DNA of 24,000 bases from Aquamicrobium aerolatum DSM 21857. Its GTDB lineage: Bacteria > Pseudomonadota > Alphaproteobacteria > Rhizobiales > Rhizobiaceae. Positions 1-17,318 of this stretch are shown here, piece after piece; positions within the stretch are counted from its first letter, which is position 1; each line of letters opens with the position of its first letter. The translations under genes and the position numbers were made by a program. The stretch is taken from NCBI RefSeq assembly GCF_900113935.1, contig NZ_FORF01000003.1:91084-115083 (forward strand), written 5' to 3'. A model generated the notes under the pieces. That model did no database searches and was not told the origin of the DNA. It saw nothing but the letters and a program-made list of their open reading frames with translations.

Positions 1-387
1 TCACGCGCGCACCAGCTTCAGCTGCTTGTCGAAGACGCTGAGAACCCGTGCGAGCTCGTGGCCGCGCTTGAGGATGAGGCCGCCGGCGGCCATGACGCTG
101 TAGGCGCCCTGCTTGCGGGCCAGCGCCGGTGTCTTGATGATCTGGTAGAGCGGAACTTCGCTGGTGCGGCGAAAAACCGAGAAGACGGCGCGGTCTTTGA
201 GATGGTCGATGGCATAGTCGCGCCATTCGGAAGCGCCGACCATCATGCTGTAAACACGAAGGATTTCGTCAAGCTCACGGCGGTGGAAGGTCACCGGGAG
301 GTCATCTTGCTGCCGTCGCGCCTCATGCAGCGCGATCACTATTCCGGAGCCGTCCTTATCCTCCGCATTCGCGTCGTGACTGGTCAT
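1..387 (-). CDS. Small conserved alphaproteobacterial protein, DUF2794-like (128 aa from the internal ATG)
   Basis: ORF 1..456. The ATG at 385-387 gives MTSHDANAEDK..., with AAGG about 9 nt upstream. The core VTFHRRELDEILRVYSMMVGASEWRDYAIDHLKDRAVFSVFRRTSEVPLYQIIK matches my recollection of the DUF2794 family. The family name is from memory, not from a search. Confidence 0.7.
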   Translation of the reverse strand: MTSHDANAEDKDGSGIVIALHEARRQQDDLPVTFHRRELDEILRVYSMMVGASEWRDYAIDHLKDRAVFSVFRRTSEVPLYQIIKTPALARKQGAYSVMAAGGLILKRGHELARVLSVFDKQLKLVRA

Positions 388-734
388 GCCCACGCCTTTC
401 GTGACGGTTGTACGACAAAGCAGCGTCGCCCGTTGCCGCCGGAAAAGCAAGGCCATGCTGCGGTCAGGGCGCGGCGGCGTCTGAGAGGCGGCTGCGCTGC
501 TGGATCACGAAGATGCACCCTATGTGACGATAGGTGATGATCGGCCACATTTGCGCCACAAATTGCCCAATCTGCTGCCCCAATGTGTGGCAACATTCGG
601 TCGTTGCCTGAGACGGTTCGGTCCGGCATGGTCCCTGTAACCCCAAGCCCCCCGCCCACGGGGGCCTGTCGGATCGAACCAACTCTCTTCCATAACCGAG
701 ATGCCTTGGGCGCGACGATCCCGAATTTCAGAAG

Positions 735-766
735 CCGGCGCTGACCATTTCAGGGCCGGTTTTTTT
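735..766 (+). terminator. Rho-independent terminator oriented on the + strand, with no annotated + strand gene upstream
   Basis: CCGGCGCTGA (735-744), loop CCATT, TCAGGGCCGG (750-759): a 10-bp stem with one mismatch, followed directly by TTTTTTT (760-766). Confidence 0.6.
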
Positions 767-784
767 ATGGGCGCGTATGGCGCG

Positions 785-824
785 TCTGTATCCCGAAACT
801 GGTTCCCAATTTCGGGATACATGC
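785..824. repeat. Palindromic intergenic element, family B copy 1
   Basis: Perfect 11-bp inverted repeat GTATCCCGAAA (788-798) / TTTCGGGATAC (810-820) around the loop ctggttcccaa. About 41 bp match 20356-20400 with roughly five mismatches. The copy ends 2 nt before the TAA stop (826-828) of the barrel gene. Confidence 0.75.
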
Positions 825-825
825 T

Positions 826-3800
826 TTAGAACTTCCCCACCACATTGAGGAAGAGCCCTCTGTCGTCCATCGTCAAGTCGCGCAGGTCGTCTGAGAAGCG
901 GCCAAAATTGTAGCCGATGCCGACTTTGAAATTGTCGCCGACATGGCGGTAGACCGCAGCGAGAGCTCCGAAATCTGTCGTCTTGGCCTCCGGCGAGTGC
1001 AGGATACGTCCTTCGAGCAGAAGATCCCATTTGCGCACGATATGCAGGTCTGCGCGGATGATGCCCAGATGCGCTGACGAGCGCTGCCATTCGGTTTCGA
1101 ACGGATAGCCAACCGCGTCTGTGCGATACTTCACCTCGGCGAGGCGAACGCCATATTTTGCGCCGACGGACAACCAGGGGACGAGATCATAGGTGAAATC
1201 GGCTGACAGGATATGGCTGCGCTGCGCGGGGGCATACATCTCGCCCGTGGCGCCGCTGACCCGCTGACCGTTCCCCGGCAGATCATAGAGCCAAGTATAT
1301 TTGAACAGCGCGTTGAGCCGGTCATTGTCAACCGGGCGATAGGCCCAGCCAAGCGATGTCTCGGCGTAGCGGGTGTCCTGGTAGGACGTGACCGACGACT
1401 GCGTGTCGGACCACACAGCATCCACATTGATCATCGCGCGCCAGTTTTCGCTGGTCTTCCAGAGCAGTCCGCCGGCGAACAGATAGGTGTTCTGATCGCG
1501 GGTTCCGTCCTCGGAATCCTCGATGCGTGCCTCACCCCTCATCCGGCTGGCAATGCCGCGTTCGTCGTCCTTGTATGACATCGACAGCGACGGCGCATAG
1601 CGCTCGAAATCGGACCTTTCGAGCCCGCTGACAGGGTCGATGGTGTTGTCCCTGATAAGCCCGCCTTCAAACCCGCCATTGACGGTCCACCGTTCATCGG
1701 GCGTGTAGACCACGCCATAGGTCTGGTTCAGCGAGCGGCGCTGGCCGTAGAGGTCGTAACTGTTTTCGCTGTAGGCGGACAGCTGGTCGTTGATGCGACG
1801 CCTGACACCAGCCACGACGTCGCCGCGATCGGTTCCTGCAAGGTCGAATGTCCGGTTGAGGTCGTAAGCGCGATCCGGATCGAGGCGATAGGCGATATAA
1901 TACTGATCATTGGCATTTGGATCGTAGGTCAGGCCGGCAAGCCCGCCAAGCCCATGCGTGCCGTAGGAAACCTCACCGTTCAGACCGACCGTATCCGTCA
2001 GCTTGAATTCTGTGCCCACGCCAAGCCGGTCGTTTCGGTCAATGTCGTTGGACCGATCGATCGTTGCCTGCCCGAACGCATAATAGAGGTGGTCGTCGTT
2101 TGGCCGGTAGTCGAGCCTGACGCCGCCGTCGAGACGCGCGCCGTTGTAGCCGCTCTTGCCGGCTGCGATTGCGTTCGGCGACAGGATGTCGGTGTAGGTC
2201 AGGCCGTATGACAGGCGCCAGCGCTCATCCAGATCGTGTTCGAGCGATGATGATCCCTGGCGCTTGGTCTGACCGGTGCCATCGCTGAAGTCGTCATAGG
2301 CAAGTCGGGCCCGCATGTTCGGCGCAAGTTCGAGATCTGCATCCATGCCCCAGAGACGCTTATCCGTCGCAGTGGTGCCGTCGAGCGTCGAGAAACCGGC
2401 GTCCTGATGCTCGAAATAGCCTCCGACCGTCCCTTTGGGCGCGTTGGGGTCGATGTCCCTCAGATCGAGCCGGCCCTTGAGCCGCCATGCCAGCGCGGTG
2501 TTTCCGGCACCGCCCGAGACGAGACTGTCGCTCTGGCTCAGGCCGCCATCATAGGAGCGCGACAAGCCGAAACCTGTCCCGCGCGATGCCGCGACCTCGG
2601 CGTCGAGATAGGAGCGCTCGGACATGCGCAGCCGGACATCGACGCCGCCGGCCTTCTGGTCGGCGTCGCCGGATGTTTCCTGCATACCGGTCAAGCCGAC
2701 GCGGACATGTTCGCCCAGCCAGTGCTGACCACGACCGCCGATGCTGTAGCCATCGACGTCGGTTGCGATCGGTTCATATTCATACTGGGCAATCAGGAAG
2801 ACTTGGTTGCCGCCAAGGGCCCCGTCACGCACCGGCCCGATGCTGCCGGACGTGGACGAAAGCGGACGGTTGAGAAGGATCACGCCCTGCAGATAGTCGA
2901 AGCGATAGTCTTCACCTTCCGTCAGATGACGACGCTCGAGCACCCGACCGGTGATGGGATCGCGGATTTCCACGGTCACGGTCTGCGAACCGCTGATCGT
3001 ATTCTGGCGCTTCAGGAAGTAGGACGATCCGCCGGTCGCGCGGAACTCGTCGCGTTGCGGCAGCGTGTCGGGCTGCGCCGCATAGACCGAAACCTCGGTT
3101 CTGCGCTCGCCGAATTCGGTGCTGTCTGGCGATACATAGACGCCCTGCGCGCCGTAGAGCGCGCGTTCGTTGCGCAGGAACTGCGTGCCGGTGACGTTGG
3201 TCTTGAAATTTCCCCACATCGCATGGCTGTCGCCGCGTTCGATGCGAACGTAGAATTTGCCGTTGGTTGGCGCATCCTCGATCATCGTCGAATCGTCGCC
3301 ATAGACCGGATAATAATCGTCAGGATCGAGGTTGCGGAGAATGTGGCGCGGATTGCGCGCGCCAAGGTTCTTGAAGATCCGGTCGAGATCATCCTCCGCC
3401 GTATCGGCGGCGGCGGTCAGCAGATACTCGCCCTTGATCTTGCCCTTCAGATAGAAGGCGAGACGGCCCTTGGTATAGACGGAATCGTATTCGCCCGGAC
3501 GAACCGCCTCGATATCCTTGCTGCCGGTGCGCTTGCCAACCGTCAGGTCGGCAAGACCGACATAGAACCAGTCATTGTCAGGAATATCGATGTCGCGGCT
3601 GAAATGTAGTCCGCCTTCAGTCGTGGTGCCCTGGACCACCACATCGACGCTGTGATCGCCAGGTGCCAGAATGCGCTGGATGACGAAAGCATCGTCCCCG
3701 TCCACCGGCACGGTTTCGCCGAAGGCAGAGACCTGGTGGCCCGCAGGGACGTTCTTGCCGTAGACGGTGACGGCACCGCCATGGACGCGAATATTCCGTA

Positions 3801-4593
3801 TGGCAGTGCGATCCTCACCCATGCCGGGCGCGATGGGATCTGTCGTCAGCTTCGGCGTGTCCTGCACCGCGCTGCGACGCAGCGTCAAAGGCGCGGTTTC
3901 GTCGTAACGACCCTTGCTGTCGTAGACACGCAGGACATACAGAAATTCCCGCTCATCTCGGGTTTGCGGCATCACCCAGTCAGCGGTCGCGTTTGGCTTT
4001 ACCGGCAGGACGGCGACAGGGTGCGGCGTCGCCGACGTGTCGTCCGGCAGATAGATGCGGATCTCGCCGCGCTCGATGAAGTCGGGGTAGTTGGTGGTTG
4101 CCAGGAAGCTGATGGCATCGCCTGGGCCAAAACTGCGCCGCATGTTCGTCGTTGCCACATTGAGAAGCGGCGTTGCACCGAGGCCATCGAACTTGATCTG
4201 GATATCGACGCTGCTGAGGTCGAGATCGGTCCGCCGCTCACGGTCGATCTGGCGCGGTTCGCCAGCGACGATGCGGTCGCCCTTCGCATTGTCCGGCTTG
4301 CTCGTTTCCAGCACCGCGCCATCGACGCTGATCGAGAACGGAATGCTGCCCTGATCCGGGATGCGCTGGCGTTCGGTATTTGCCCCGACGGGTAGATCGT
4401 GGCTGCGGGCGTCATCGTGGATCTTGCCGCGGATCTGTCCCTCGCAGTTCTCGGCGGCACAGTCTGCATCATTGGCCAGAGACGGTTGAGCAAGTAGTGC
4501 GAAACCGATCAGGGCCGTGCCGGCCAGCAGCCGCAAACGCACGGAAGAGAGGTCGGGGCGGATGGAGCGCATTGTTTCTGTTGCCTGTCCCAT
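826..4593 (-). CDS. Large (~1255 aa) outer-membrane beta-barrel-like protein of unrecognised family, translationally coupled to the giant repeat protein
   Basis: ORF 826..4596. The ATG at 4591-4593 shares one base with the TGA of the upstream gene (TGATG); an alternative ATG lies at 4570-4572 (MRSIRP...). The N-terminus is signal-peptide-like (...LLAGTALIGFALLAQPSLA|ND). From about nt 3573 downward (DWFYVGLADLTVGKR...) there is a long run of amphipathic G/Y/D/R-rich beta-hairpin-like segments (RLSYGLTYTD, GVRLDYRPNDDHLYYAFGQA, VGLNGEVSYGTHGLGGLAGLTYD). The protein ends ...DDRGLFLNVVGKF; a terminal Phe is the classical OMP beta-signal. Confidence 0.8.
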   Translation of the reverse strand: MGQATETMRSIRPDLSSVRLRLLAGTALIGFALLAQPSLANDADCAAENCEGQIRGKIHDDARSHDLPVGANTERQRIPDQGSIPFSISVDGAVLETSKPDNAKGDRIVAGEPRQIDRERRTDLDLSSVDIQIKFDGLGATPLLNVATTNMRRSFGPGDAISFLATTNYPDFIERGEIRIYLPDDTSATPHPVAVLPVKPNATADWVMPQTRDEREFLYVLRVYDSKGRYDETAPLTLRRSAVQDTPKLTTDPIAPGMGEDRTAIRNIRVHGGAVTVYGKNVPAGHQVSAFGETVPVDGDDAFVIQRILAPGDHSVDVVVQGTTTEGGLHFSRDIDIPDNDWFYVGLADLTVGKRTGSKDIEAVRPGEYDSVYTKGRLAFYLKGKIKGEYLLTAAADTAEDDLDRIFKNLGARNPRHILRNLDPDDYYPVYGDDSTMIEDAPTNGKFYVRIERGDSHAMWGNFKTNVTGTQFLRNERALYGAQGVYVSPDSTEFGERRTEVSVYAAQPDTLPQRDEFRATGGSSYFLKRQNTISGSQTVTVEIRDPITGRVLERRHLTEGEDYRFDYLQGVILLNRPLSSTSGSIGPVRDGALGGNQVFLIAQYEYEPIATDVDGYSIGGRGQHWLGEHVRVGLTGMQETSGDADQKAGGVDVRLRMSERSYLDAEVAASRGTGFGLSRSYDGGLSQSDSLVSGGAGNTALAWRLKGRLDLRDIDPNAPKGTVGGYFEHQDAGFSTLDGTTATDKRLWGMDADLELAPNMRARLAYDDFSDGTGQTKRQGSSSLEHDLDERWRLSYGLTYTDILSPNAIAAGKSGYNGARLDGGVRLDYRPNDDHLYYAFGQATIDRSNDIDRNDRLGVGTEFKLTDTVGLNGEVSYGTHGLGGLAGLTYDPNANDQYYIAYRLDPDRAYDLNRTFDLAGTDRGDVVAGVRRRINDQLSAYSENSYDLYGQRRSLNQTYGVVYTPDERWTVNGGFEGGLIRDNTIDPVSGLERSDFERYAPSLSMSYKDDERGIASRMRGEARIEDSEDGTRDQNTYLFAGGLLWKTSENWRAMINVDAVWSDTQSSVTSYQDTRYAETSLGWAYRPVDNDRLNALFKYTWLYDLPGNGQRVSGATGEMYAPAQRSHILSADFTYDLVPWLSVGAKYGVRLAEVKYRTDAVGYPFETEWQRSSAHLGIIRADLHIVRKWDLLLEGRILHSPEAKTTDFGALAAVYRHVGDNFKVGIGYNFGRFSDDLRDLTMDDRGLFLNVVGKF

Positions 4594-7500
4594 CAATTTC
4601 CAGCCTTCACAGTCGTCTCGATCTCAAGCGGATAGGCCTCGCCTTTGCGCTTCCAGAGATCGGCAATTTGATTGCGCAGCGCCTTGACGCGCTTCTTCGC
4701 CAGTTCCTGCTCCGCAGCCGGCGCCACGAAACTGAGCCGAAGAACCGAAGGCTCCTGTTTCAGCACGTCGATGAGCTGATCCAGATTGTCCTGCCATTGC
4801 TTCTGCAACTCGGTGCTTTGCGGCTTGAACGCCTCACCCTGCAGGTCGAGACGAACCACACGGCTGATGGACGCACCGAAATTGATCTTCGTCATCTTGC
4901 CGGCGGTGAGGCGCACAACGCGCGGGTTCTCCGTGGTCAACCGGTAGCCGGTCGGCAAGGTGCGCTCGTCCAGCTTCATGATGAAGTTCGAACCGATCCG
5001 CTGATCCGGAAGCGCTGCGCACGGAACATGGAAGCGGCCGTGCTTGTCGGTCGTGATCAGCCAGCCCTTGACCGTCGCCACCCGGACGCCCGGCAGTCCC
5101 GGCTCACCCTGATTTTGATAACCGTCAAAGTTGCGATCGTCGAAGACGGTGCCGATGACCTCGCCGCAGTCGAAGATCGGCTCCGCGACGATCTCGACAG
5201 CCGCCTTTGCATCCGGGGCAAGCCGAGTTCCGGCCCGATCGAAGATCGAGGCGACGTTGACATGCGTGCCGGGGCCAGCCGAACTGAGAACCAGAAGATC
5301 AAGCCGGATGTCCACGACGCTGTTCGGCCCGAGCGACAAATTGGTGAAATTCACCTGGCGACCGGAGACGTCCGGTACAAAAGGAGCCCCGTCCAGCGTT
5401 GCCGAGCCTTCGATGAACCGGAAACCGGAAGGCATCGTGTCCAGAATATTGACCGGACCGGCATTGCTCGAGGAGGTGTTTTCCACCTTGATCACATAGG
5501 GAACACGCTCGCCACGTCTGACCTGATGAAGCAGCGCCTGCTTGGTGATGCGCACATCACTCGGCTCCGTGGCCGGCAGGGTCACGACAGCATCGACCGG
5601 CGCGGTTTCATAGGGCCGCAGGTTGCGCAGATTGCCCACCGCAACCGCCGTGTTGACGACCGCGTCCATGATACCCGACGCAGCATCGATATCATCCTGC
5701 GACAGGATATAGGTCGCCGTGAACCTCTGGCTTTCGTTGGGTGCCAGGGTGACCGGCGCCGGCGAAAAGGCCGACAGCGTGTTGGTTGCGGGCTGCCCCC
5801 GGAAAACCGGGCCGTCGTCCTTGGGAGTGACGTTGTAGAGCGTCGCGTTGCCGTTATTGGTGATGTCGAACGTATAGGCGATGGTCTCACCGGGTTCCGG
5901 GTAGCCATTGCCGTTCGTATCGTTCCAGGTTCCCTTCTTGACGATCGTCAGTTCCGGCGCCGGCGGAATGACCGGCACGATCAGTGGAAGATCGTCGTCG
6001 AACGTCGGCCCGGACTTGTCCTCGATATCTTTCGGACCACTGCCATCATCATAGCGTGCCGCGACAATGGCCTGATTCTCGACCTGCTCATTGTCGATGT
6101 CATCTTCGGTAATGGCATAGACCGCCTGGAAGACCTGTTGCTGACCGGGCACCAATACGCTGATTTCCGGGAACACGTTGGGCGACAGGCCTGGAAGTGG
6201 GTCGTTGAGCCTGACATTTGTCAGCACCAGATTGCCGGTGTTCTTCACCGTGAAGGTATAGGCGATCAACTGCCCCACCTCGGCCGGCTCGCTCAGCGTC
6301 GTGTTCGCGACGTCCTGCTCCTTGATCACAGCGATCGAAGGCAACTGGTCGAGCGGCACCGTGATCCGATCCGATATATTGGGGACGTTTTCGGGCGTTC
6401 CGGTCGACGGGTTGGTATAGATGCCATTCACCGACGCCTGGTTGATGACCTCACCGGCGACGATGTCGCTCTGCGTGATCGTATAGGTGCCGTCCAGCGT
6501 CACCGCATTGTTCACGCCTGGAAGCAGGAGCGGTATTGTGGTTTGCGGAAGCACGATGCCGGCCAGCGTATCGGTAAGCACGACATCGGTGAGCGTGACA
6601 TTGCCGATATTGGTGATGACAAAGCTGTAGCTGATTTCATCACCGGCCTGCGGTGGCGTTTGCAGCGCGCTGTCATCGGCCGTTTTGACGATACGGATGC
6701 CCTTGTCGAGATCAATCGGGAATGGCGTCGGCGTATCGTTTGTGGTGTCCGTACCGGAGACATCCCTGACATCATCCACGGTGCCGCCAACGCTGGAGCC
6801 GATCACCTGCGCCGTATTGGCGAATTCGCCGTTGTCGATGTCCGACTGCTTCAGCGCATAGGTCGCGATGAACGCGGTCGAATTCCGTTCCGTCGGTCCC
6901 AGCGGGCCGGTCCAGCCGGTGACGTTGGTGACCTGTACGTCGGCGACAAGGTCCTCGATCCGGATGTTTTCCAGCGTGATGTTGCCGGTATTCTCGATCG
7001 TGAAGGCGTAGGTGATGACATCACCGGCCTGAACGGGGCTATCGGGCTGGGTTGCGATCGACTTGACCAGCGTGATCGCGGGTGCCCGCACCAGCGTATT
7101 TACGGTCGGGTTGTCGGTGGTGAAATCGGACCCGCTGGCATCTTCAACCGGGGTGTTTGGCCCGCTAACCGGCGTACCGGTGGTCCGCGCCATATTGCTG
7201 ATGCTGCCATGATCGACATCGGCCTGGGTCAGAACGTAAGTTCCGCGAACCACAAACTCTTCCAGAGGCTGGAGGGTTGCGGCAGACAGCGCCGCCATGT
7301 CGGTGGCATTCAGAGCAACGATAATCTCATCGTCACTCACGTTCAGTTCGTCAACCAGCGTGAGATTGTTCAGCGCAATGTTGCCGGTATTGCGGATGGT
7401 GAACGTGTAGGAAATGACATCGCCCTGCACTGGCGGCGTCGACAGCGCATCCAAGCTCGCAATCTTCTTCAACGCGATCGACGGCACCGACTTCAACGGC

Positions 7501-10500
7501 ACTGTCACCTGATCTGACGGCACCGGGGGTTGCGGTCCGGTTGGATCGCTGAAGCTGGCGGTCGCAATGTTGAGCACTTGGCCAGCGTTGATCCAGCTCT
7601 GCAGGATCGGGGCCGAGACAGTGAACTCAACGTTTGCGCCGGGCAGCAATGACGCAACCACAGCCGGTGAGACGGTCGCTCCATCCAGCGGATCGGCGAC
7701 GCTCACATTGCTCAACGTGACATTGCCCGTATTCGTAGCAGTGACCTTCCAGCGAAGAATGTCGCCCGCGCGCGGATTGACCGGCTCGGACCCGATCAGC
7801 TCCTTGACGAGGGACAGGCCGGGCTGTCTGAAGGTTTCGACATCACGGTCGGACGGATCGCTGGAAATCGGCGTGTTGGTGGGCCCGTAGCTACCCGAGG
7901 CCGTCGCGGTGTTCTCGATCAGGCCTGTGTCGATATCGGCTTGTGTCACCGCATAGGTGGCATAGATGACGACGACCTCATCAGGCGCCATGTCGCCGAT
8001 GACGAAGGAGCTTTCCGGGGTAATGCCCGACAGAAGATCAGCAACCGTGACATTCTTCAGGTTGGTGTTGCCGGTATTGGTGACGGTGAAGCTGTAGCGG
8101 ACGATATCGCCAACCGCCGTCCGTGGATTCTGGATGTTGTTGGCGGCGATATCCTTGACCAGCTCGATCCCTGGATTGCTCAGGCTTGGAACGGTTGCCG
8201 TCGCATCCTTGGTGACGGTCAGTGGCGTTCCGCCAGAGGTGCCCCATTGCCCGACGACCGTGGCCTTGTTGTCGACCTTGCCGCGATCCAGATCATCCTG
8301 CGTCAGCAGATAATAGGCTGAGATCTCGCCATTATAGGTCTCGCCCGGTTCCAGTCGCGCGATGTTTGTCGGGCTCAGAGCCTGAAGGCCCGGCAAGGTG
8401 TCGGACAGCACGATGTCCACCAACGGTATGTTGCCGGAGTTCCTGATTGTGAAGCTGTAGTTGATCCTGTCGTTCAGTGCGGCAGCGCCGAGCGTGCGCA
8501 CAGGCGTGGCAGCCTTGGTCAGTTCGATCGCAGGCGCCGGCGTCACCGTCACCGTCGTCGGCGTGTTGGATTTGGGATTGTCCTGGCCGGTCGCCGTGTT
8601 GTGAGATGCGTCGCTGGCCGGTTTGCCTGAATAGGTGCCGGTCGCGGTCACTTCAGCCTGATTGACGTGGGTGGTGGAGGTGCCAACCCACGGCACCTGC
8701 GGCTGGACCTGAACTGTAAAGGTCATCTCGGCGGTCTGACCGACGGCAAGCGTACCGCCAGTCACGATTTGCGGTGTACCGCTGCCGTCGAAGCCGGCAT
8801 TCAAGCCAATGCCGGACGCGGTCACGCTCAGTACCTTGTATTGGCCCGGCGAAAGCGTTGCGTTTGCAGCAACCGCCGTTCCAAACAGCTGTGCCGCGTC
8901 GTCCATCACGTCGGTGAGGTCGACGTCTTCAAGCGGCTCCTCGGAATGGTTCCGGACCTTGATCGTGTAGGCAAGCCGGTAGCTGCCATCGGCCTGAAAC
9001 TGCGCGGCGCCAACCGTCTTGCCAAGACCGATCTGCGGCAGCGGCACGAGGGTGAAGTCATTGTTGACGTGGTCATACTCACCCGTCGTGACAATGTTTG
9101 TGATGACCGATTTGCCGGTGTTGGTGGCGGTTCCTTCGCCGGCCGGATTGCTTCCCGGAAACGCTCCGCCATCGCCAGCAGCCGAGGAATAGTCGGCCAG
9201 ATTAGAAACGGTGTAGCTCACCTGATAGGAGCCGGGCGGCAGATCCTGGAATATATAGGTTCCGTCAGATTTCGTCGGGATCGTCAGACTGATGTCAGTG
9301 CCGTCGTGCGTCGCCTTGCCGGTGATGGTGACCTGCGCGCCGGCAATCCCGCTATCCGTCTGGTTCAGCGTGCCGTCATTGTTGAAATCCTTGTAGATCT
9401 TTCCAGAAACGGAGCTTCCGCGAACAGTGCTGACACTGCCGGTGGAGGTGTTGTTTCCAGGAACCTTGTCGAAGGATTCCGTATCGACCGTGGCCGTGTT
9501 GGACGCGGCCTGCGCACCAAGATCGGTGATCTTGGTGTAAAGCCTCACGGTGATTGTGCCGCCAGCCGGAATATCACCGAACGTGCAATCGATCTGACGA
9601 CCGGTCACCACGCCGGTGCACAGGCCTGCCCCGGCCGGGATGATCTCCGGCAGCCGTGTGAGTTCCATGCCCGCCGGCAACGTATCCGAAAGCGTGACCT
9701 CTTCAGCGATATCAAGCCCTGGGCCGGGGATGTTGGTGATGACGAGATCCCAGTAGAACTCCTTGCGAAGATCGACCGCGGCCACAGACGGTGTCTTGAC
9801 GACACTGATGTCGGCGCGTGTGCGCACCGTGGTCGTCTCCCGCGAGACGTTGTTTGCCGATGGCCCTTCGTAGCCTGCCGCGGTTTCGTCGGACGACACT
9901 GAGACGGTGTTCTCCCAGCGGCCATGCTTGAACGACGTCATCTGCAGCTTGAATGAAACCGTTTCGCCAGCTTCCAGCCTTTCCTGGGTACAGTGGATCT
10001 GCCCCCCCGGTGCTGTGGTGCTGGTGCCGCTCAACGTGCATGTCAGTCCGGCCGGCACATCGACAAGTCGCGGATCGGTGAAGCCGTCAGACGGAAGCTG
10101 ATCTTCGATGACGATACCGAATGCGTCGGATGGGCCGGCATTTTCCAGCGAGATCGTGTAGGTGACCGGCGTCGTGATTTCGACTGGATCATAGGGATCG
10201 TCCGTCTTGTCGATAATCAGATCGAGGCTCGGCGGCAGGATAGTGATGCCAAGCTGGGTAGAGTTGTTGCCGGTATCAGTCTCATCCGTGTCGGTCGCAA
10301 CCGACGCTTCGTTGATTATTGCGGCACCAACCAAGTCCGTTGTTGGGACGACAACGATGTCGAGCGTCTTTTGTGAGCCGTTGTTGATGGTTCCGAAGGC
10401 ACAGGTGATTTCCCTGTTTGTCGTACCAATCAGAGTGCCTCGCGCAGGAACATTCGTGCAGGTCGCCCCCTCGGCTTCTGCGCTGACGAAGATGACCCCT

Positions 10501-12767
10501 GCGGGCAGCCGCTCGGTGACGACGACATTTTCGGCGTGGCTCAGTCCCGATCGGGGAACAGAGGCGGTCACCGTGTACAGGATCTCCTGACCGGCAAACG
10601 CACCCGACGCGGAAGCAGGGCTGATCTTGGAAACAGTGACGTCCGTGAGCGGCGTAACCGTATACGAAACCTGATCCTCGTTATTGTCCAGATCCGGATC
10701 CGGGACATCGACGGAATAGGCATTGACCGTATTCGACTTGAGGCCTTGCGATCCCGGACGAACGGTGACCGAGATCGTCGGACAGTCCACACCTTGCACG
10801 CAGACCGGCAGCGAGGCGATGCTGCATTCAAGATTGCGGCCGAAATCGCCTGCCGGGGTCGAACTGCACGTCAGGCCGCGCGCCACCCCCGTCGAGACAA
10901 CCGGGACCACAACGACCGGCTGCCCGCCGCCTGCCGCCCCGACGATGTCGTTCAGGCGGTCGGCGACCTGGACATTCGTCGCCTCGGCGACGCCTTTGTT
11001 GTAGACTTCGATGACAAAAGTGACTTCACCGCCAGCCTGAACCGTCTGCGCCGAGACGCTTTTCACCGTGCCGATATCCGCCCAGTTCTTGTCGTCCGCG
11101 CTCGTCACCCCGGCATGGGTGGTATTGTCCGGCAGATAGTCGTCGATGGACTCATAGTCCGGGAAAGAGACGACCATTCCGTTCGAGATCGTGCCGACCT
11201 GCTGAACTTCAGCCGTGATCGTGATCGGGTCCGTAAAGCTTCCGATCGCAAGGCCGCTGGTCGTGTAGCGGCTCGTCGTGCAGGAGATGCTCGCAGGGCC
11301 TTGAATGGGCCCCGAGGACGGGTTGCAGACCCAGCCGTTGGGCGCGTTCACTTGCGTGACAAGCAGCCCCGCCGGCAACAGGTCCGTAATCGTCATCTCA
11401 TCGGTGAACGGCTTGTTGCCGCGGTTTTCGGCGCGCAGAACGAAGTCGTAGGAGTTTCCGACCGTGACAAGACCGCGAGGCGTTCCGGATTTGTGGGCCT
11501 TCAGATCGACGATCGGCGCACGAATGTCGGCCTTGAGATCCTGTGCCTGGTTGTTGTCGCGTGGAGCATCTGCATTTTCGTCAGGCGATGAGATGTTCGC
11601 CGTGTTGACGACGCCGCTCGCGTCGGTGACGAGGTCGGCGGTCGCGCTGATGGTGATCGGGCTTGCATAGACCGAGCCAGCGGCTTTCGTATATTCGCAG
11701 GTCAGCGTCCGACCAGACAGGTCGCAGCTCCAGCCCGAGCCAGCCGGCACCTGGGTGTCCACAATTCCATAATTGTCCGGAATGACATCCACGATCGTGG
11801 CACGTTCCGGTTCAATGCCGGAAAAGGCAGGCGTCAGCGTGAAGGTGACGGGATCGCCAAGCAGCAACAGGCCGCCAGGCGACCGTGTCTTCTGCAGGCG
11901 GACATCGGTCCCCGGTGTGACGTTCAGCGTGATGGTGTCATTGTCGTTGGCAGAAACCGGATCCTGCGGCGCACCGCCTTCGACCCGGCCGGGAATCGAT
12001 ATGGTGGAAATGTCGCCTGCGGTCACCTGCGCGGACAGGTCGAATTCATAGCTTTCGCCGACCGCCAGGGCTTGCGGGACAACGCAGATGATATTGCCGC
12101 CGGAAAGGGAACAATCTCCAGGAAGCTGCGCAATGGTCATTCCCGACGGCAGCGGGATGACAACTTGCGAACTCGTGGAAGGATAGGGACCGTTATTGGT
12201 GACGGTAGCCTTCAACGGTACACTGGAGCCAGCCTGTACCGTCGTTTGCGCAGCGGAGATCTGCAGTTCGAGATCGGCGCCGACCGTGATTGTCGTTGAG
12301 CGTTCGGCGGTGGTCCCGCTTCCCGGCGCTCCATTCGGGTCGGAAACACGACCTTCCAGCTTGATGACGCAGTTGCCACCGGAGCATTCCCCCTGCATCG
12401 GCGACAGGAGAACTTCCGCGGGCAAATCCTGCCCCGGTGTCAGAACCGGCACATCGCAACTGACCACAAGCGGAGCGGCAAGAACCTGCCCATCCGGCGC
12501 CGGCGTACAATTGTCCAGACCAGACACGCCGCGGTAGATCGTCGTTGCCGGGATGGTAAGATCCAGCTTTCCAGCGACTGTATCGTAGTTGCCGTCATTC
12601 GTGATCCTGAGATCGTACGGCAGTGTGCCGCCGGCAGGGATGATTGCCGCTCCATGACGATTGTTGATGTTCAGCGTCCATTCGCCAACAGACTGAGCCT
12701 GAGCTGCCTGCACGCACAAAAAGGAGGCGAGGGAAACGATCCCAGCCGTCAACGAGATCCGGAACAT
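4593..12767 (-). CDS. Giant (2724 aa) secreted or surface repeat protein with DUF11-type conserved repeat modules and two SdrD-B/Cna-B-like modules; putative adhesin
   Basis: Uninterrupted 8.2-kb ORF. ATG at 12765-12767 with an in-frame TAA 9 codons upstream. Sec signal peptide [26 protein letters not shown]. Repeated signature G[DE]x[IV]xYx[FV]x[IV]xNxGNxxLxxVxxxDxL, typical of the DUF11 / TIGR01451 conserved repeat domain. Ca-binding-like DxNxDG motifs ([32 protein letters not shown]). Confidence 0.9.
   Translation of the reverse strand: [2724 protein letters not shown]
4596..4868 (-). other. C-terminal ~90-aa tail of the giant protein with a degenerate OmpA-C-like beta-alpha-beta-alpha pattern
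   Basis: [91 protein letters not shown]. The F-x-P-x-S-x-E-L ... L-x-x-L ... hydrophobic strand ... LAKKRVKAL layout resembles OmpA/Pal/MotB C-domains. The GHTD loop is missing. Confidence 0.35.
4865..5172 (-). other. SdrD-B-like module 2 of the giant protein
   Basis: [50 protein letters not shown]...[28 protein letters not shown]. Confidence 0.6.
5565..8534 (-). repeat. Eight tandem Cys-free modules of ~124 aa (period 340-410 nt) within the giant protein
   Basis: Each unit starts P[AGSE][IL]x[LIV]xK, carries the Y[ST]FT[IV]xNTGN[IV]xLxN[IV] core, and has a Y.[LI][TS]Q.D[IV]D.G motif. The conserved NTGN cores lie near nt 5850, 6240, 6600, 6970, 7380, 7720, 8060 and 8430. The units are strongly diverged at the DNA level. 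Confidence 0.8.
9205..9419 (-). other. SdrD-B / Cna-B-like module 1 of the giant protein
   Basis: [69 protein letters not shown]. This fits the V-Y/F-x-D-x-N-x-[DN]-G ... G-[IV]-x-G-[AV]-x-V-x-L ... T-x-x-x-G-x-Y-x-F ... L-x-x-G-x-Y pattern of SD-repeat B domains. Confidence 0.7.
9420..12695 (-). other. N-terminal array of eight Cys-pair DUF11-type modules within the giant protein
   Basis: Each module ends with a C-x(6-20)-C pair. Examples: [113 protein letters not shown]. Confidence 0.7.
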
Positions 12768-12951
12768 CTGGCTTAGACTTTCATTTCCAATTTAGGCTCT
12801 GGGAGAATTTGAGCGGCCTTGGCGGCCTGCCCGACCAAACCCGAAAAGACGGTTGATCCAACTGGCAGCGATGCGGAACGAGCGACCGCGAGGGTAGGAA
12901 AAACGAGACGCCAATGTGAGCGCATGGATTTTCCACGCGGAGCTGCCTGCG

Positions 12952-12973
12952 ACCGCGTCATGTCTACCGCGTC
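12952..12973. promoter_or_regulatory. Direct repeat ACCGCGTC-N6-ACCGCGTC in the divergent spacer between the giant gene and luxR; candidate regulator site
   Basis: ACCGCGTC occurs at 12952-12959 and again at 12966-12973. This is the only exact 8-mer duplication I see in the 373-bp spacer. Confidence 0.2.
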
Positions 12974-13140
12974 TGCTAGTGAGTGATCCGGCTCATCTAA
13001 CCAGATCCGGGGTGGCGCGCGGCTGGTGAGGTTGTCAGTTGCACACCCTTGACGTACCAATAACTTGGGGGGTCTTCTGATTCGTTTTGTGAGTGTGGTA
13101 CGATTTTTTTGCGCTTGATCGGTCGGTGGTTGAGATAGGC

Positions 13141-13806
13141 ATGTCAACCAATAGAGATCAGTTGATTTCAGCAATCTCGGACGGAATACTTCGTTTCGGA
13201 TTTCAGTCCTTCAATCTGACCTACAATAAATCCAATACTCATGAATTCATGACTGATCCGACTTTGACGGACTGGTCGAAAAGTGATCTTGAAGGCTATC
13301 ATCGCAACAATCTGATCGATTGCGATCCTTTGCTTGAGCTTCTGGCGGAACGACATGTTCGCAAATTGTGGCGTCCTGCCGATTGGCACGGCAAGCCCAA
13401 GGCGCAAGCCTATCGTGCATATGTCGAGCAGATCGGCGTGCGCAGCGGCGTGACAGTAACGCTTGCTGGGCGCGCGGACCGCATCAGCGCCTTTGCGGCC
13501 CTCTCCAGAGAAAATGTTGAAGATCCGTCCGTTGCGCCGGCCATTGCCGTCCTGGCGCAAGCCGCGCTCGCAAAAGCGGCGGCTCTGGAAATTCCAGGCG
13601 AAGATCTTCCCGCTGCCTGCGCCCGGCAAAGTTCTCTCACCGCCAAGCAACTGGAAATATTGTCGTGGGCACGCGAGGGAAAATCGAACCGCGACATCGC
13701 CACGATCCTGAGTATCTCGACGCGGACGGTGAACTATCACATGTCGGAGATCCTGAAAAAGCTCGGCGTTGCCAGCCGCACGCAGGCCATCACGATGACA
13801 TCATAG
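13141..13806 (+). CDS. LuxR-family transcriptional regulator (solo; autoinducer-binding-like N-domain plus C-terminal HTH), 221 aa
   Basis: The ORF opens at GTG 13093; the ATG at 13141 (MSTNRDQL...) is preferred. The C-terminus LTAKQLEILSWAREGKSNRDIATILSISTRTVNYHMSEILKKLGVASRTQAI is a canonical LuxR/GerE HTH of the quorum-sensing subtype. The N-domain has a partial W...Y...DP signature (DWSKSDLEGYHRNNLIDCDP). No luxI/traI-type synthase lies in the window. Confidence 0.85.
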   Translation: MSTNRDQLISAISDGILRFGFQSFNLTYNKSNTHEFMTDPTLTDWSKSDLEGYHRNNLIDCDPLLELLAERHVRKLWRPADWHGKPKAQAYRAYVEQIGVRSGVTVTLAGRADRISAFAALSRENVEDPSVAPAIAVLAQAALAKAAALEIPGEDLPAACARQSSLTAKQLEILSWAREGKSNRDIATILSISTRTVNYHMSEILKKLGVASRTQAITMTS

Positions 13807-13811
13807 CCGGG

Positions 13812-13833
13812 AACCGGCGGTCCCCGCCCGGTT
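13812..13833. terminator. GC-rich hairpin between convergent luxR and the DUF1223 gene; weak terminator candidate
   Basis: AACCGGCGG / CCGCCCGGTT: a 9-bp stem with one bulge and a 3-nt loop, starting 6 nt after the luxR TAG. No U-tract on either strand. Confidence 0.3.
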
Positions 13834-13902
13834 GAACAACATGCACTCCTTTCGAGCCCTCTGCCGTTGGCGCAGGCCTGCGAAAATCTGGGATCATACA
13901 GT

Positions 13903-14694
13903 TTAGCGGGGAGGCTCGAGGATTGCGGCGCCGAGGATGGCGCCGGGCAGGCCGCCTTCGCGCATTTCCTGCAGCAGCACCGCGCAGCCCCCCGCGCCCT
14001 TGCGGGTGATCTCGCTGAGCGGGATTTCCAGCCGGGTGCGCTCTCCCGACCACATGCCGACCGTGTGGAAGCGCGATACCGAATTGACATAGGTGAACTG
14101 ACGGCCGTTGTCGCGCCCGCGCGTGATCTCGACCCTGGTCGTCGGATTGAAATAGACCAGCACGATCTGCACCTGATCGACGGGATGCGGATAGGCTTCG
14201 GTCTGGATGGTCAGAGCGCCGTCGTCATAGGACAGCCGCACCGGGACGCTGAGGCCGTCTTGCGCATTGTCGAGCTGCGAGATCGAGGCCTCGATGTGAT
14301 TGCGCTTGGCGCCGTTCATCTGCTGGCGGCCATTGATGATCGCCTGCGGGGTATAGACCGAGCGCTCGCCGAAGGCGCGGCTGTAATCCTGCTGGCGCGC
14401 GGTGTTGTCGACCGTGGCCAGCGTGTCGCGCCAGCCCAGATAATCCCAGTAGGTGACGTGATAGGCGAGGGCGACGACATCGTCGCGCTCGGCCATTTCG
14501 CGCAGCATCTCGTCGGCAGGCGGGCAGGAGGTGCAGCCCTGGCTGGTGAACAGCTCGACCACCGCGCGCGGGCGGGTGTGGCTCTCCTTCGCCCCTGCGC
14601 CTGCGGCGGCGGGCAAGGAGACAAGAAATGCAGCCGCGGTCAGGCTCAGACAGGTCAGATGCAACGCTTCATCCCGATCGGTTTTTCGGCCCAT
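13903..14694 (-). CDS. DUF1223-family secreted thioredoxin-like protein
   Basis: ORF 13903..14721 opens with TTG; the first ATG is at 14692-14694 (MGRKTDRDEALHLTCLSLTAAAFLVSLPAAAGAGA, signal-like). Hallmark ELFTSQGCTSCPPADEMLREMAERDDVVALAYHVTYWDYLGWRD. Confidence 0.8.
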   Translation of the reverse strand: MGRKTDRDEALHLTCLSLTAAAFLVSLPAAAGAGAKESHTRPRAVVELFTSQGCTSCPPADEMLREMAERDDVVALAYHVTYWDYLGWRDTLATVDNTARQQDYSRAFGERSVYTPQAIINGRQQMNGAKRNHIEASISQLDNAQDGLSVPVRLSYDDGALTIQTEAYPHPVDQVQIVLVYFNPTTRVEITRGRDNGRQFTYVNSVSRFHTVGMWSGERTRLEIPLSEITRKGAGGCAVLLQEMREGGLPGAILGAAILEPPR

Positions 14695-15480: not shown

Positions 15481-15486
15481 ATGTGA

Positions 15487-16889: not shown

Positions 16890-17318
<429 letters not shown>

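What the first reader, a model, noticed from the sequence alone, without database searches (positions are those of the whole stretch)
826..12767. Giant Sec-dependent DUF11 repeat protein coupled to an unclassified ~1255-aa outer-membrane barrel: candidate two-gene surface-display system
Two genes fill 11.9 kb and are joined by a one-base stop/start overlap (TGATG at 4591-4595), so they are made together.

Giant protein (2724 aa):
- It has a cleavable Sec signal peptide followed by about 20 beta-sandwich-type modules.
- I find none of the usual export or anchoring features for giant adhesins.
- There are no RTX GGxGxD nonapeptides or an acidic T1SS C-terminus.
- There is no N-terminal TPS domain and no beta-barrel domain of its own.
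- There is no LPXTG or T9SS-type tail.

Partner protein:
- It has a signal peptide and a ~300-aa beta-rich N-terminal region (FSISVDGAVL, IRVHGGAVTVYGKNVPAGHQVSAFGETVPVDGDDAFVIQRILAPGDHSVDVVVQG).
- About 900 aa of amphipathic beta-hairpin sequence follow, ending in ...LFLNVVGKF (OMP beta-signal).
- I do not recognise POTRA, usher, LptD, TonB-plug or Omp85 signatures in it.

Working hypothesis: the barrel is a dedicated translocon or anchor for the giant protein, a route distinct from T1SS and T5SS.

The module sits between core genes, next to a divergent LuxR solo. I see no integrase, tRNA gene or flanking direct repeats.
Basis: partly seen in the sequence, partly recalled or inferred. Interest (0 to 1): 0.8.

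Follow-up and report, generated by a model that had tools for sequence, protein, structure and literature searches.

The report
Giant adhesin with its own mega-barrel
Two overlapping genes encode a 2724-residue stalk-like surface protein and a dedicated, unusually large outer-membrane barrel. The same pair recurs across many Gram-negative bacteria and is often fused into one protein, which points to an uncharacterised autotransporter-like display route.

Summary
On the minus strand, a 2724-aa Sec-signal protein (11 DUF11, 8 DUF7507, 2 SdrD_B modules) ends in TGA, one base into the ATG of a 1255-aa outer-membrane protein.

That partner has no Pfam, NCBIfam or PDB match. Public records call it "TonB-dependent receptor", but it has no plug and no TBDR barrel.

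AlphaFold predicts N-terminal beta-sandwiches and at least 34 long barrel strands. Foldseek finds only generic large barrels, at TM 0.1-0.3.

Evidence that the two genes are coupled:
- About 60 of 72 informative loci carry a giant gene directly upstream, usually with an ATGA overlap.
- The giant's last ~245 aa are its most conserved part (55-74% identity; 51% in a betaproteobacterium).
- The pairing recurs in Burkholderiales and Vibrio.
- At least 18 of the best 150 cluster representatives are single polypeptides that run passenger, C-terminal domain, linker, N-domain, barrel.
- OmpA peptidoglycan-binding domains are sometimes inserted at the junction, which places it in the periplasm.

Best reading: a split member of a widespread, autotransporter-like but non-homologous anchoring and probably secretion module. 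Translocation itself is not shown.

The parts
4593..12767 (-). Giant repeat protein gene (2724 aa): a Sec-exported, CLIPPER/DUF11-type fibrillar 'passenger'
   Evidence: ORF, translation. Pfam finds 11 DUF11, 8 DUF7507 and 2 SdrD_B. TIGR01451 matches 12 times.
12696..12767 (-). Signal peptide of the giant protein (residues 1-24, AQA|Q)
   Evidence: Read directly from the translation. No prediction program was run.
5589..8555 (-). Eight tandem DUF7507 (CLIPPER_2) units, residues 1405-2393. Each keeps a Lys...Asp...Asn triad.
   Evidence: Self-BLAST and MAFFT of the units show K, D and N columns conserved in at least 85%. The triad is the isopeptide signature given for DUF7507 in PMC12617251.
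4596..5330 (-). Conserved C-terminal domain (CTD, residues 2480-2724). It comprises the end of the last DUF11, an SdrD_B-like beta-sandwich (about residues 2536-2634) and a beta-alpha-beta-alpha-beta subdomain (about residues 2636-2723).
   Evidence: It is 55-74% identical in Hyphomicrobiales loci, whereas the N-terminal and middle parts are 25-50% identical or give no hit. It is 51% identical, E 6e-70, at the very C-terminus of the Eleftheria giant. The AF2 model has pLDDT 87. Foldseek matches SdrD/UafA B domains for the sandwich and finds nothing confident for the alpha/beta part.
4591..4595 (-). TGATG stop/start overlap, indicating translational coupling
   Evidence: Among 46 related paired loci, 37 have an ATGA overlap, 3 have GTGA and 1 has TAATG.
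826..4593 (-). Partner outer-membrane protein gene (1255 aa)
   Evidence: It is 100% identical to P0001 of Aerobium aerolatum, and 2584 homologues were found.
4474..4593 (-). Signal peptide of the partner protein (residues 1-40, SLA|ND)
   Evidence: Read directly from the translation.
3529..4206 (-). N-domain: two predicted beta-sandwich modules, residues ~130-355. Inferred to be periplasmic.
   Evidence: AF2 strands at model residues 75-297, pLDDT 65-90. The region is conserved from about residue 157 in Vibrio, Ralstonia and Croceibacterium. In relatives it is preceded by OmpA domains.
2809..3501 (-). Most conserved stretch of the partner, residues ~365-595. It contains the hairpin GRLAFYLKGKIKGEYLLTAAADT, the motif DPDDYYPVYGDDS and a small beta region. 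It is a candidate plug or partner-binding element.
   Evidence: Column identity is 0.80-0.92, against 0.73 for the barrel. Much of it nevertheless has pLDDT below 50 in the monomer model. Homology with the Acinetobacter fusion protein starts exactly here.
829..2805 (-). Transmembrane beta-barrel, residues ~597-1255. About 34 long antiparallel strands, ending in the beta-signal GLFLNVVGKF.
   Evidence: DSSP of the AF2 model shows 34 strands of 8-16 residues between model residues 542 and 1198, pLDDT 70-93. Foldseek returns only generic large barrels.
787..821 (-). Perfect 16-bp hairpin directly after the partner's stop codon, marking the 3' end of the two-gene unit. It has no U-tract.
   Evidence: z-score -7.9 against shuffles. 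The simple terminator scan did not call it.

Best explanation
The window holds a split, two-gene member of a large and so far uncharacterised family.

In this family a Sec-exported fibrillar protein, built of isopeptide-type Ig-like modules (DUF11/CLIPPER, DUF7507/CLIPPER_2, SdrD_B), is coupled to a dedicated outer-membrane protein. That protein has periplasmic N-terminal beta-sandwich domains and a very large barrel of at least 34 and probably about 36 strands.

Proposed mechanism:
1. The two proteins are made together by translational coupling, and each crosses the inner membrane by Sec.
2. The barrel is inserted into the outer membrane.
3. The giant's conserved C-terminal beta-sandwich domain docks on, or in, the barrel and its N-domain at the periplasmic face.
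4. The variable repeat stalk passes through the wide lumen and is displayed outside. The C-terminal domain stays behind as stopper and anchor.

Shown here: gene coupling, co-inheritance, fusion, the periplasmic location of the junction, and the absence of homology to known systems.

Inferred only: surface exposure of the stalk, passage through the lumen, and the stopper role of the C-terminal domain.
For: (1) Translational coupling. The window has a one-base overlap. A 4-nt ATGA or GTGA overlap occurs in 40 of 46 paired relatives.

(2) Synteny.
- The genome scan found 580 relatives, of which 80 loci were kept.
- Of the 72 loci with at least 1.5 kb of upstream DNA, about 60 carry a CTD-encoding giant ORF (1300 to more than 3288 aa) ending at, or within about 1 kb of, the barrel start.
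- Many contigs break inside the giant gene.
- The same gene order occurs in Eleftheria terrae (Betaproteobacteria; 2647 aa then 1405 aa), Ralstonia (1858 aa overlapping 1201 aa) and Vibrio campbellii (3771 aa then 1171 aa).

(3) The giant's C-terminal ~245 aa are far better conserved than the rest of the protein.

(4) Fusions.
- The 880-aa barrel module always lies at the extreme C-terminus of its hits. There are 3142 clusters at E<=1e-3.
- 16 of the best 150 representatives are 2134-6889 aa long.
- These are collinear with window giant C-terminus, then linker, then partner N-domain, then barrel.
- They have N-terminal signal peptides and hydrophilic junction linkers without an internal signal peptide.
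- Their N-terminal parts contain DUF11, DUF7507 and SdrD_B.
- A complete Acinetobacter plasmid carries such a fusion protein.

(5) Topology. OmpA (PF00691) domains lie between the CTD and the N-domain in fusions P0343 and P0381. They lie at the N-terminus of the partner in Eleftheria, P0313 and P0342. In Vibrio and Acinetobacter they are encoded by the next gene. This places the junction in the periplasm.

(6) The barrel is not a known transporter.

(7) DUF11 and DUF7507 are stalk domains of cell-surface fibrillar adhesins (PMC12617251). The window's eight DUF7507 units keep the K-D-N triad.
Against: - No experiment, and no paper found here, shows that any member is surface-exposed or secreted.
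- The AF2 model of the partner is only moderate (mean pLDDT 68, pTM 0.52). I could not inspect the coordinates, so barrel closure, lumen size and any plug are not verified.
- One monophyletic clade of barrels in Nitratireductor and Chelativorans has no giant gene next to it.
- CTD-bearing genes without an adjacent barrel also exist. The coupling is therefore not obligatory in cis.
- OmpA domains at the junction fit a purely periplasmic tether equally well.
- Isopeptide-locked domains cannot unfold once formed. Passage would need either a very wide pore or folding after export, and neither is shown.
Confidence: 0.6

Rival explanations
1. Anchor only. The barrel and its N-domain hold the giant's C-terminal domain, but the stalk crosses the outer membrane by another machine (BAM/TAM-assisted, or a type II system).
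For: - The CTD is the conserved part, which is all that an anchor needs.
- A type II/pilus-like cluster lies near the Eleftheria module.
- Orphan barrels and orphan CTD genes show that the two can be separated.
Against: - In fused forms the passenger and barrel are one chain, with the junction in the periplasm. The stalk must then reach the outside past its own barrel.
- No second secretion system is conserved near the module. No third gene is conserved in the alphaproteobacterial loci, and none is present in the window.
Confidence: 0.2
2. Envelope-internal scaffold. The giant protein stays in the periplasm, and the complex tethers the outer membrane to peptidoglycan or organises the envelope, as SlpA and OmpM-type connectors do.
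For: - OmpA peptidoglycan-binding domains sit at the junction or are encoded next to it.
- The junction is periplasmic.
- The best TM-scores normalised to the query in Foldseek (about 0.20) are to Deinococcus SlpA.
Against: - The stalks are 1300 to more than 6000 aa of tandem Ig-like modules, which is far longer than the periplasm is wide.
- The passenger is hypervariable in length and sequence while the CTD is conserved, the usual pattern for exposed adhesins.
- DUF11 and DUF7507 are described as extracellular stalk domains (PMC12617251).
- The module is often plasmid-borne and its genomic context is not conserved, which does not fit a core envelope component.
Confidence: 0.15
3. The database name is right: the partner is a TonB-dependent receptor or FadL-type nutrient channel, and its position next to the giant gene is incidental.
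For: NCBI and UniRef names for P0001 and most homologues. TBDT structures appear among the Foldseek hits.
Against: - No Plug (PF07715), TonB_dep_Rec (PF00593) or Toluene_X/FadL hit at E<=0.01.
- No NCBIfam hit.
- The TBDT matches have TM 0.14-0.31.
- About 34 strands are predicted, against 22 or 14.
- Conserved overlap, synteny and fusion with the giant protein.
Confidence: 0.03

Closest known systems
Type V secretion (Va classical autotransporters; Vb two-partner secretion TpsA/TpsB)
   Same: A Sec-exported large passenger is paired with a cognate outer-membrane beta-barrel. The pair exists both fused, with the passenger N-terminal and the barrel C-terminal, and as two adjacent co-translated genes. 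No ATPase or inner-membrane component is encoded alongside.
   Different: - The barrel module is about 880 aa with at least 34 strands, against 12 or 16.
- No Autotransporter, ShlB, Omp85 or POTRA model matches.
- The passenger lacks an N-terminal TPS domain. Its recognition element is a C-terminal beta-sandwich.
- OmpA domains can sit at the junction.
Type IX secretion: SprA translocon plus C-terminal-domain (CTD) signal
   Same: A very large barrel (36 strands in SprA). The cargo is Sec-exported and carries a conserved C-terminal beta-sandwich domain. The cargoes are often long Ig-repeat adhesins.
   Different: - No sequence match to SprA, Por_Secre_tail or TIGR04183.
- Foldseek TM to SprA is 0.09-0.13.
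- No other T9SS genes are present.
- The family is found in Pseudomonadota, Verrucomicrobiota and Acidobacteriota rather than Bacteroidota.
- Cargo and barrel can be one chain.
Inverse autotransporters (Ve, intimin/invasin)
   Same: An Ig-like repeat passenger, a barrel anchor, and a periplasmic peptidoglycan-binding domain adjacent to the barrel.
   Different: The domain order is reversed (periplasmic domain, barrel, then passenger at the C-terminus). The barrel has 12 strands and the binding domain is LysM rather than OmpA. There is no homology.
CLIPPER (DUF11) fibrillar adhesins, e.g. Acinetobacter silvestris B9T28_05395 (PMC12617251)
   Same: The same stalk domains (DUF11/CLIPPER, DUF7507/CLIPPER_2, SdrD_B) with the isopeptide triad, plus a signal peptide. 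The paper describes that protein as a Gram-negative fibrillar adhesin with an 'OmpA-like anchoring domain'.
   Different: That paper does not describe a barrel partner, the conserved CTD or a secretion route (the word 'barrel' occurs 0 times). I could not test whether B9T28_05395 carries this barrel module.
Superfamily of very large outer-membrane barrels predicted to have 38 and 40 strands (Solan et al. 2021, PMC8346858)
   Same: Single-chain barrels larger than any solved at that time, predicted from sequence and contact maps, and of unknown function.
   Different: Identity with the present family could not be checked because no supplement is held. That paper reports no link to DUF11 proteins (0 occurrences).
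LapA/LapE retention (type I adhesins)
   Same: A giant repeat adhesin is held at the surface because a folded terminal domain cannot pass the outer-membrane pore.
   Different: In LapA/LapE the pore is TolC-like, export is by an ABC transporter without Sec, the retention module is N-terminal, and RTX repeats are present. None of these features is found here.

Membership tests
TonB-dependent receptor (the NCBI name of the partner) | N-terminal plug domain (Pfam PF07715) | tested here: not met
   No hit at E<=0.01 and none at E<=10 on residues 1-580. The N-terminal region is predicted to be all-beta sandwich.
TonB-dependent receptor (the NCBI name of the partner) | 22-stranded TonB_dep_Rec barrel (PF00593) | tested here: not met
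   No Pfam or NCBIfam hit. About 34 strands are predicted. Foldseek TM to TBDTs is 0.14-0.31.
FadL / long-chain fatty acid transporter (the UniRef name) | 14-stranded Toluene_X barrel (PF03349) | tested here: not met
   No hit. The protein is about three times too long.
Two-partner secretion (type Vb) | TpsB with POTRA domains and a 16-strand Omp85/ShlB barrel | tested here: not met
   No POTRA, ShlB or Omp85 (Bac_surface_Ag) Pfam hit. No PDB profile hit.
Two-partner secretion (type Vb) | TpsA with an N-terminal TPS (haemagglutination activity) domain | tested here: not met
   It is absent from the 14 Pfam families that hit the giant.
Classical autotransporter (type Va) | C-terminal 12-strand Autotransporter domain (PF03797) in the passenger protein | tested here: not met
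   No hit. The giant ends in a soluble beta-sandwich plus alpha/beta domain.
Chaperone-usher | Usher barrel (PF00577) and a periplasmic chaperone gene | tested here: not met
   No Usher hit. No chaperone gene is among the flanks.
Type IX secretion | Por_Secre_tail/TIGR04183 CTD on the cargo; SprA-family translocon | tested here: not met
   No such Pfam or NCBIfam hit. SprA TM-scores are 0.07-0.13.
Type I (RTX) adhesin | No Sec signal; RTX nonapeptides; adjacent ABC, MFP and TolC genes | tested here: not met
   A Sec-type signal peptide is present. There is no HemolysinCabind hit and no transporter genes in the flanks.
CLIPPER/DUF11 fibrillar adhesin (PMC12617251) | Signal peptide plus tandem DUF11/DUF7507 stalk modules | tested here: met
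   11 DUF11 and 8 DUF7507 stretches. Signal peptide.
CLIPPER/DUF11 fibrillar adhesin (PMC12617251) | Lys-Asp-Asn isopeptide triad in the modules | tested here: met
   K, D and N columns are conserved in the eight DUF7507 units. Actual bond formation cannot be tested here.
CLIPPER/DUF11 fibrillar adhesin (PMC12617251) | Location on the cell surface | not testable with these tools
   Needs protease shaving or immunolabelling.
Large OMBB superfamily with 38/40 strands (PMC8346858) | Single closed barrel of about 38-40 strands; sequence membership in families 002/003 | tested here: inconclusive
   DSSP gives 34 long strands plus a possible N-terminal hairpin.
The family defined here (CTD-bearing giant plus N-domain/mega-barrel; split or fused) | C-terminal ~880-aa barrel module with the YYPVYGD region and an aromatic C-terminus | tested here: met
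The family defined here (CTD-bearing giant plus N-domain/mega-barrel; split or fused) | Passenger ending in the conserved GxPGVR...GRxH...NF..K.D..TLP.G...NP...R.T.GK..K.NFG beta-sandwich, encoded immediately upstream of the barrel or fused to it | tested here: met

The most novel reading that the evidence does not exclude
This is a distinct outer-membrane protein-export and anchoring pathway. It is autotransporter-like in logic but uses a non-homologous barrel of about 36 strands, wide enough to pass, or to be plugged by, folded Ig-like domains. A C-terminal beta-sandwich acts as the targeting and stopper signal, and peptidoglycan-binding modules brace the complex. The pathway would be widespread in Pseudomonadota and present in Verrucomicrobiota, Acidobacteriota and Gemmatimonadota, where it is currently hidden under the labels 'TonB-dependent receptor' and 'hypothetical'.
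Probability: 0.4. Interest if true: 0.9.

Novelty: new variant of a known kind. Interest (0 to 1): 0.75.

Why it matters
- **Secretion.** How Gram-negative bacteria put multi-thousand-residue, Sec-dependent Ig-repeat adhesins on their surface without a type I, V or IX system is unexplained for thousands of genes. This pair gives a concrete, testable answer: a two-gene cassette that could be moved into a naive host.
- **Mechanism.** If the barrel is the conduit, it would be a new secretion route with an exceptionally large single-chain barrel. It would also raise the question of how isopeptide-locked domains cross the outer membrane.
- **Annotation.** The family (at least 3142 clusters at 50% identity) is systematically misnamed 'TonB-dependent receptor', which distorts counts of iron and nutrient transporters in Hyphomicrobiales genomes.
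- **Application.** The split and fused forms offer a natural scaffold for surface display.

Tried and rejected
- **PDB sequence searches.** Searches with the partner, its 46-sequence profile, the Acinetobacter fusion and the giant found nothing.
- **OmpA-like CTD idea.** I suspected that the last ~90 aa of the giant (beta-alpha-beta-alpha-beta) were a degenerate OmpA-like peptidoglycan-binding domain. Pfam at E<=10 and Foldseek do not support this. Vibrio and Ralstonia giants lack this subdomain altogether. The idea was dropped.
- **LuxR solo as dedicated regulator.** The LuxR solo and the other flanking genes occur in none of 80 related loci.
- **A third conserved component.** Clustering ORFs in the 5 kb downstream of the barrel found only lineage-local synteny in the alphaproteobacterial loci. 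tblastn with OmpA proteins found none in the alphaproteobacterial loci or in the window.
- **Fusions as frameshift artefacts.** Rejected. The junctions lack the partner's signal peptide and are hydrophilic linkers. One fusion lies on a finished plasmid.
- **Literature.** Searches for DUF11 with barrel, secretion or OmpA, and for TIGR01451, found no description of the pairing. One search was badly designed and uninformative.
- **Link to Solan et al. 2021.** The 38/40-strand families of Solan et al. 2021 could not be tied to this family.
- **Model coordinates.** They are not exposed to scripts, so strand count rests on the DSSP string alone.
Full report
**1. The observation**

The two long ORFs are real and lie on the minus strand. 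The giant gene is 4593..12767 (2724 aa) and lies upstream of the partner gene, 826..4593 (1255 aa). The plus strand reads ccatcaatt at 4590-4598. The partner's ATG (4593-4591) therefore shares one base with the giant's TGA (4595-4593).

The giant starts with a Sec-type signal, MFRISLTAGIVSLASFLCVQAAQA|Q. Pfam resolves it into 11 DUF11, 8 DUF7507 and 2 SdrD_B stretches. NCBIfam finds 12 TIGR01451 repeats. No RTX, TPS, autotransporter, LPXTG or T9SS-tail model matches.

The partner has a signal peptide (…QPSLA|ND) and ends in GLFLNVVGKF. It reaches no Pfam cutoff (best: DUF7840, 24 bits against a cutoff of 27). It has no NCBIfam hit and no PDB relative by sequence or by profile.

The window contains no tRNA gene. 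The flanks encode:
- a DUF2794 protein,
- a divergent LuxR solo,
- DUF1223,
- a ceramidase-like protein,
- Amt,
- thioesterase II,
- a flavin monooxygenase.

**2. Identity and database names**

The partner is identical to a protein of Aerobium aerolatum. It has 2584 detected homologues, mostly in Hyphomicrobiales: Brucella/Ochrobactrum, Pseudochrobactrum, Agrobacterium, Sinorhizobium, Mesorhizobium, Phyllobacterium, Devosia, Nitratireductor and Chelativorans. Some are in Rhodobacterales.

Almost all carry the NCBI name 'TonB-dependent receptor', and a few are called fatty-acid transporter or porin. None has a precomputed Pfam domain. Those names are not supported: the protein has no plug, no TBDR barrel and no FadL model.

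**3. Structure of the partner**

I predicted residues 56-1255 with a 46-sequence alignment (A1). The model has mean pLDDT 68 and pTM 0.52. In protein numbering it shows four regions:
- a disordered N-terminus;
- two beta-sandwich-like modules at about residues 130-355 (pLDDT 65-90);
- a hairpin at about 375-397, then a stretch at about 400-485 with pLDDT below 50, then short strands to about 575;
- 34 long antiparallel strands from about 597 to 1253 (pLDDT 70-93).

The low-confidence stretch is nevertheless among the most conserved parts of the protein. Column identity is 0.80-0.92 there, against 0.73 for the barrel, and it holds the motifs GRLAFYLKGKIKGEYLLTA and YYPVYGDDS. That combination is what one expects of an element that folds against a partner or inside the lumen. 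This is inference.

Foldseek against the PDB finds LptD, TonB-dependent transporters, SprA, Deinococcus SlpA and MtrB at E~1e-6, but with TM-scores of only 0.1-0.3. That amounts to 'a big outer-membrane barrel', not a family assignment.

**4. Is the pairing conserved?**

A scan of one genome per species found 580 relatives, and 80 loci were kept.

- In the loci with enough upstream DNA, a plus-strand ORF of 1300 to more than 3288 aa ends at the barrel's start. Many contigs break inside it, as expected for a repetitive gene.
- tblastn with three pieces of the window's giant shows a sharp asymmetry. The last 245 aa match at 55-74% identity in essentially every such locus. The middle matches at 25-50%, and the N-terminus matches in only a few loci.
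- Combining, about 60 of 72 informative loci have the CTD-encoding gene directly upstream, or in a few cases within about 1 kb.
- The junction is ATGA in 37 of 46 examined loci, GTGA in 3 and TAATG in 1. Translational coupling is therefore a family trait.
- No flanking gene of the window recurs in those loci. No third gene is conserved downstream in the alphaproteobacterial loci.

The unit is the two genes. It sits in varied places, including plasmids.

**5. Exceptions**

Eleven loci lack a giant gene: L051-L053, L055-L058, L062, L063, L065 and L069, from Nitratireductor and Chelativorans. The seven included in the neighbour-joining tree form one clade, a paralogous subfamily.

In L063 this orphan barrel lies between biotin carboxylase and carboxyltransferase genes, next to a DUF922 gene. 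Several of these genomes also hold a paired copy (L010/L051, L016/L053).

Two cases run the other way:
- A 210-aa CTD-only ORF sits beside a transposase in N. aquimarinus.
- A Chitiniphilus CTD gene is not followed by a barrel.

Linkage in cis is therefore the rule but not absolute.

**6. Beyond the Alphaproteobacteria**

tblastn against plasmids and chromids found several informative cases.

- **Eleftheria terrae (Burkholderiales).** A 2647-aa SdrD_B/DUF11 protein lies directly upstream of a 1405-aa homologue of the partner, 36% identical over 94% of its length. The giant's extreme C-terminus is 51% identical to the window's CTD, E 6e-70. The barrel protein carries an OmpA (PF00691) domain at residues 114-209.
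- **Ralstonia.** An 1858-aa ORF overlaps a 1201-aa homologue.
- **Vibrio campbellii.** A 3771-aa DUF11 protein is followed by a 1171-aa homologue (26% identical), then by a 301-aa OmpA-family protein.

The Vibrio and Ralstonia giants end right after the CTD's beta-sandwich. The universal core of the CTD is therefore that sandwich. Its motif is GxPGVR..TV.G…TD..GR.H…NF..K.D..TLP.G…NP…R.T.GK..K.NFG.

**7. Fusions**

On an Acinetobacter haemolyticus plasmid, one 2008-aa protein contains three parts in order:
- DUF11 and SdrD_B, the latter 31% identical to the window's CTD, E 1e-14;
- a middle region;
- a C-terminal 800 aa that aligns with residues 376-1255 of the window's partner to the last residue, E 1e-26.

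It is followed by an OmpA-family gene.

An exhaustive HMMER search with the 880-aa barrel module found 3142 clusters (50% identity) at E<=1e-3 and 809 at E<=1e-30. The module was always at the extreme C-terminus of the hit. Sixteen of the best 150 representatives are 2134-6889 aa long.

BLASTP shows these giants, plus P0241 and P0265, are collinear with the window's two proteins. The order is last DUF11 and CTD (37-48% identity), a linker, the partner's N-domain from about residue 85-130 (29-43% identity), then the barrel.

They begin with signal peptides. Their junctions are hydrophilic P/A/G/D/E-rich linkers with no internal signal peptide, so they are genuine fusions rather than frameshift artefacts. 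Their N-terminal parts are DUF11, DUF7507 and SdrD_B.

A search seeded with the Acinetobacter module shows the family also occurs in Psychrobacter, Steroidobacter, Hydrogenophaga, Verrucomicrobiota, Acidobacteriota, Gemmatimonadales and Candidatus Eisenbacteria. SdrD_B, DUF11, Big_1 or invasin-type domains are often present in the same chain.

**8. Topology**

Where about 550 aa separate the CTD and the N-domain in fusions (P0343, P0381), those residues are OmpA domains. Mid-sized stand-alone partners (P0313, P0342, Eleftheria) carry one to three OmpA domains at their N-terminus.

By established knowledge, OmpA-C domains bind peptidoglycan in the periplasm. The C-terminus of the giant and the N-terminus of the partner therefore meet in the periplasm.

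The CTD model (pLDDT 87) is an SdrD-B-like sandwich plus a beta-alpha-beta-alpha-beta subdomain. Foldseek confirms the sandwich (SdrD/UafA, E 5e-7) and finds nothing confident for the second part.

**9. The passenger**

A 2025 survey renamed DUF11 'CLIPPER' and DUF7507 'CLIPPER_2'. It describes them as isopeptide-bonded stalk modules of cell-surface fibrillar adhesins. It also solved a DUF11 domain from a 2129-aa Acinetobacter silvestris protein, described as having an 'OmpA-like anchoring domain' (PMC12617251).

The window's eight DUF7507 units all keep the Lys…Asp…Asn triad. The passenger is therefore best read as a mechanically robust stalk. No specific adhesive head domain was recognised.

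**10. Mechanism**

Shown:
- co-translation signals;
- co-inheritance across three proteobacterial classes;
- a conserved C-terminal domain on an otherwise fast-evolving giant;
- repeated fusion into one chain in the order passenger, CTD, (OmpA), N-domain, barrel;
- a periplasmic junction;
- no homology to known secretion barrels.

Inferred: the stalk lies outside the cell, the chain crosses through the wide lumen, and the CTD, possibly with the conserved 365-595 region of the partner, forms the stopper or plug.

The arrangement works like type V secretion, with fused and two-partner forms. It also recalls the T9SS pairing of a C-terminal beta-sandwich signal with a giant barrel. It fails every membership test for those systems.

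The main rivals are:
- an anchor-only role, with another machine doing the export;
- a periplasmic tether;
- the database's TonB-receptor label, which is effectively excluded.

**11. Novelty and literature**

I found no paper describing the pairing, the CTD or the fusions. Two papers touch the parts:
- Solan et al. 2021 predicted a superfamily of 38- and 40-strand barrels of unknown function (PMC8346858). I could not establish identity with this family.
- The CLIPPER survey covers the stalk domains.

Subscription-only literature was not searchable. I rate this a new variant of a known kind: autotransporter or two-partner logic with an unrelated mega-barrel. There is a substantial chance (about 0.4) that it is a distinct secretion pathway.

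**12. Verdict**

The translocon role and surface display are plausible but untested. Interest 0.75.

Noticed in passing
window 787-821 (-): A perfect 16-bp hairpin lies immediately after the partner's stop codon (z -7.9 against shuffles). It has no U-tract and was not called by the terminator scan. A second GC hairpin followed by a T-run on the plus strand lies at about 735-768.
   Followed up: partly
window 826-4593 and homologues P0001-P0120: The family is systematically named 'TonB-dependent receptor' (NCBI) or 'long-chain fatty acid transport protein' (UniRef). It has no plug, TBDR or FadL signature, so this is probably propagated misannotation.
   Followed up: yes
L051-L053, L055-L058, L062, L063, L065, L069 (e.g. 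L063:9683-13582): Barrel paralogues in Nitratireductor and Chelativorans have no giant gene next to them. The seven placed in the tree form one clade. In L063 the barrel lies between biotin carboxylase and carboxyltransferase genes, beside a DUF922 gene. Their partner or function is unknown.
   Followed up: partly
L081/L082:8001-8633: Nitratireductor aquimarinus has a 210-aa ORF consisting of the CTD alone. It sits next to a transposase fragment with no barrel downstream, and looks like a decayed module.
   Followed up: partly
L007 and L013 (Pseudorhizobium tarimense contig NODE_18): At least three giant-plus-barrel modules lie within about 55 kb of one contig, one of them in the opposite orientation.
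   Followed up: no
window 13093-13806 (+): A LuxR solo (Autoind_bind plus GerE) is divergent from the giant gene, across a 325-bp intergenic region. It is not found next to the module in any of 80 related loci, so any regulatory link would be specific to this organism.
   Followed up: partly
L084:14419-15501, L086:15268-16173, L085:11239-15456: An OmpA peptidoglycan-binding component travels with the module in Gamma- and Betaproteobacteria, either as a separate downstream gene or as an N-terminal domain of the barrel protein. It is absent from the alphaproteobacterial two-gene form, including this window.
   Followed up: yes
L085:18254-27116: In Eleftheria terrae a type II secretion / type IV pilus-like gene cluster (GspE, GspF, secretin, prepilins) lies about 3 kb downstream of the module on the other strand. 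This may be coincidental.
   Followed up: no
window 4380-7517 (+) and other long ORFs antisense to the two genes: Several long ORFs of up to 1045 aa lie on the strand opposite the giant and barrel genes. They were not searched against any family library, and I take them to be artefacts of the ~60% GC content.
   Followed up: no
window 1-14000 versus 14001-24000: The module and its left flank have GC 0.58-0.62. The genes to the right have 0.62-0.65. The difference is mild and there is no tRNA or integrase, so this is weak evidence at best for horizontal acquisition.
   Followed up: partly
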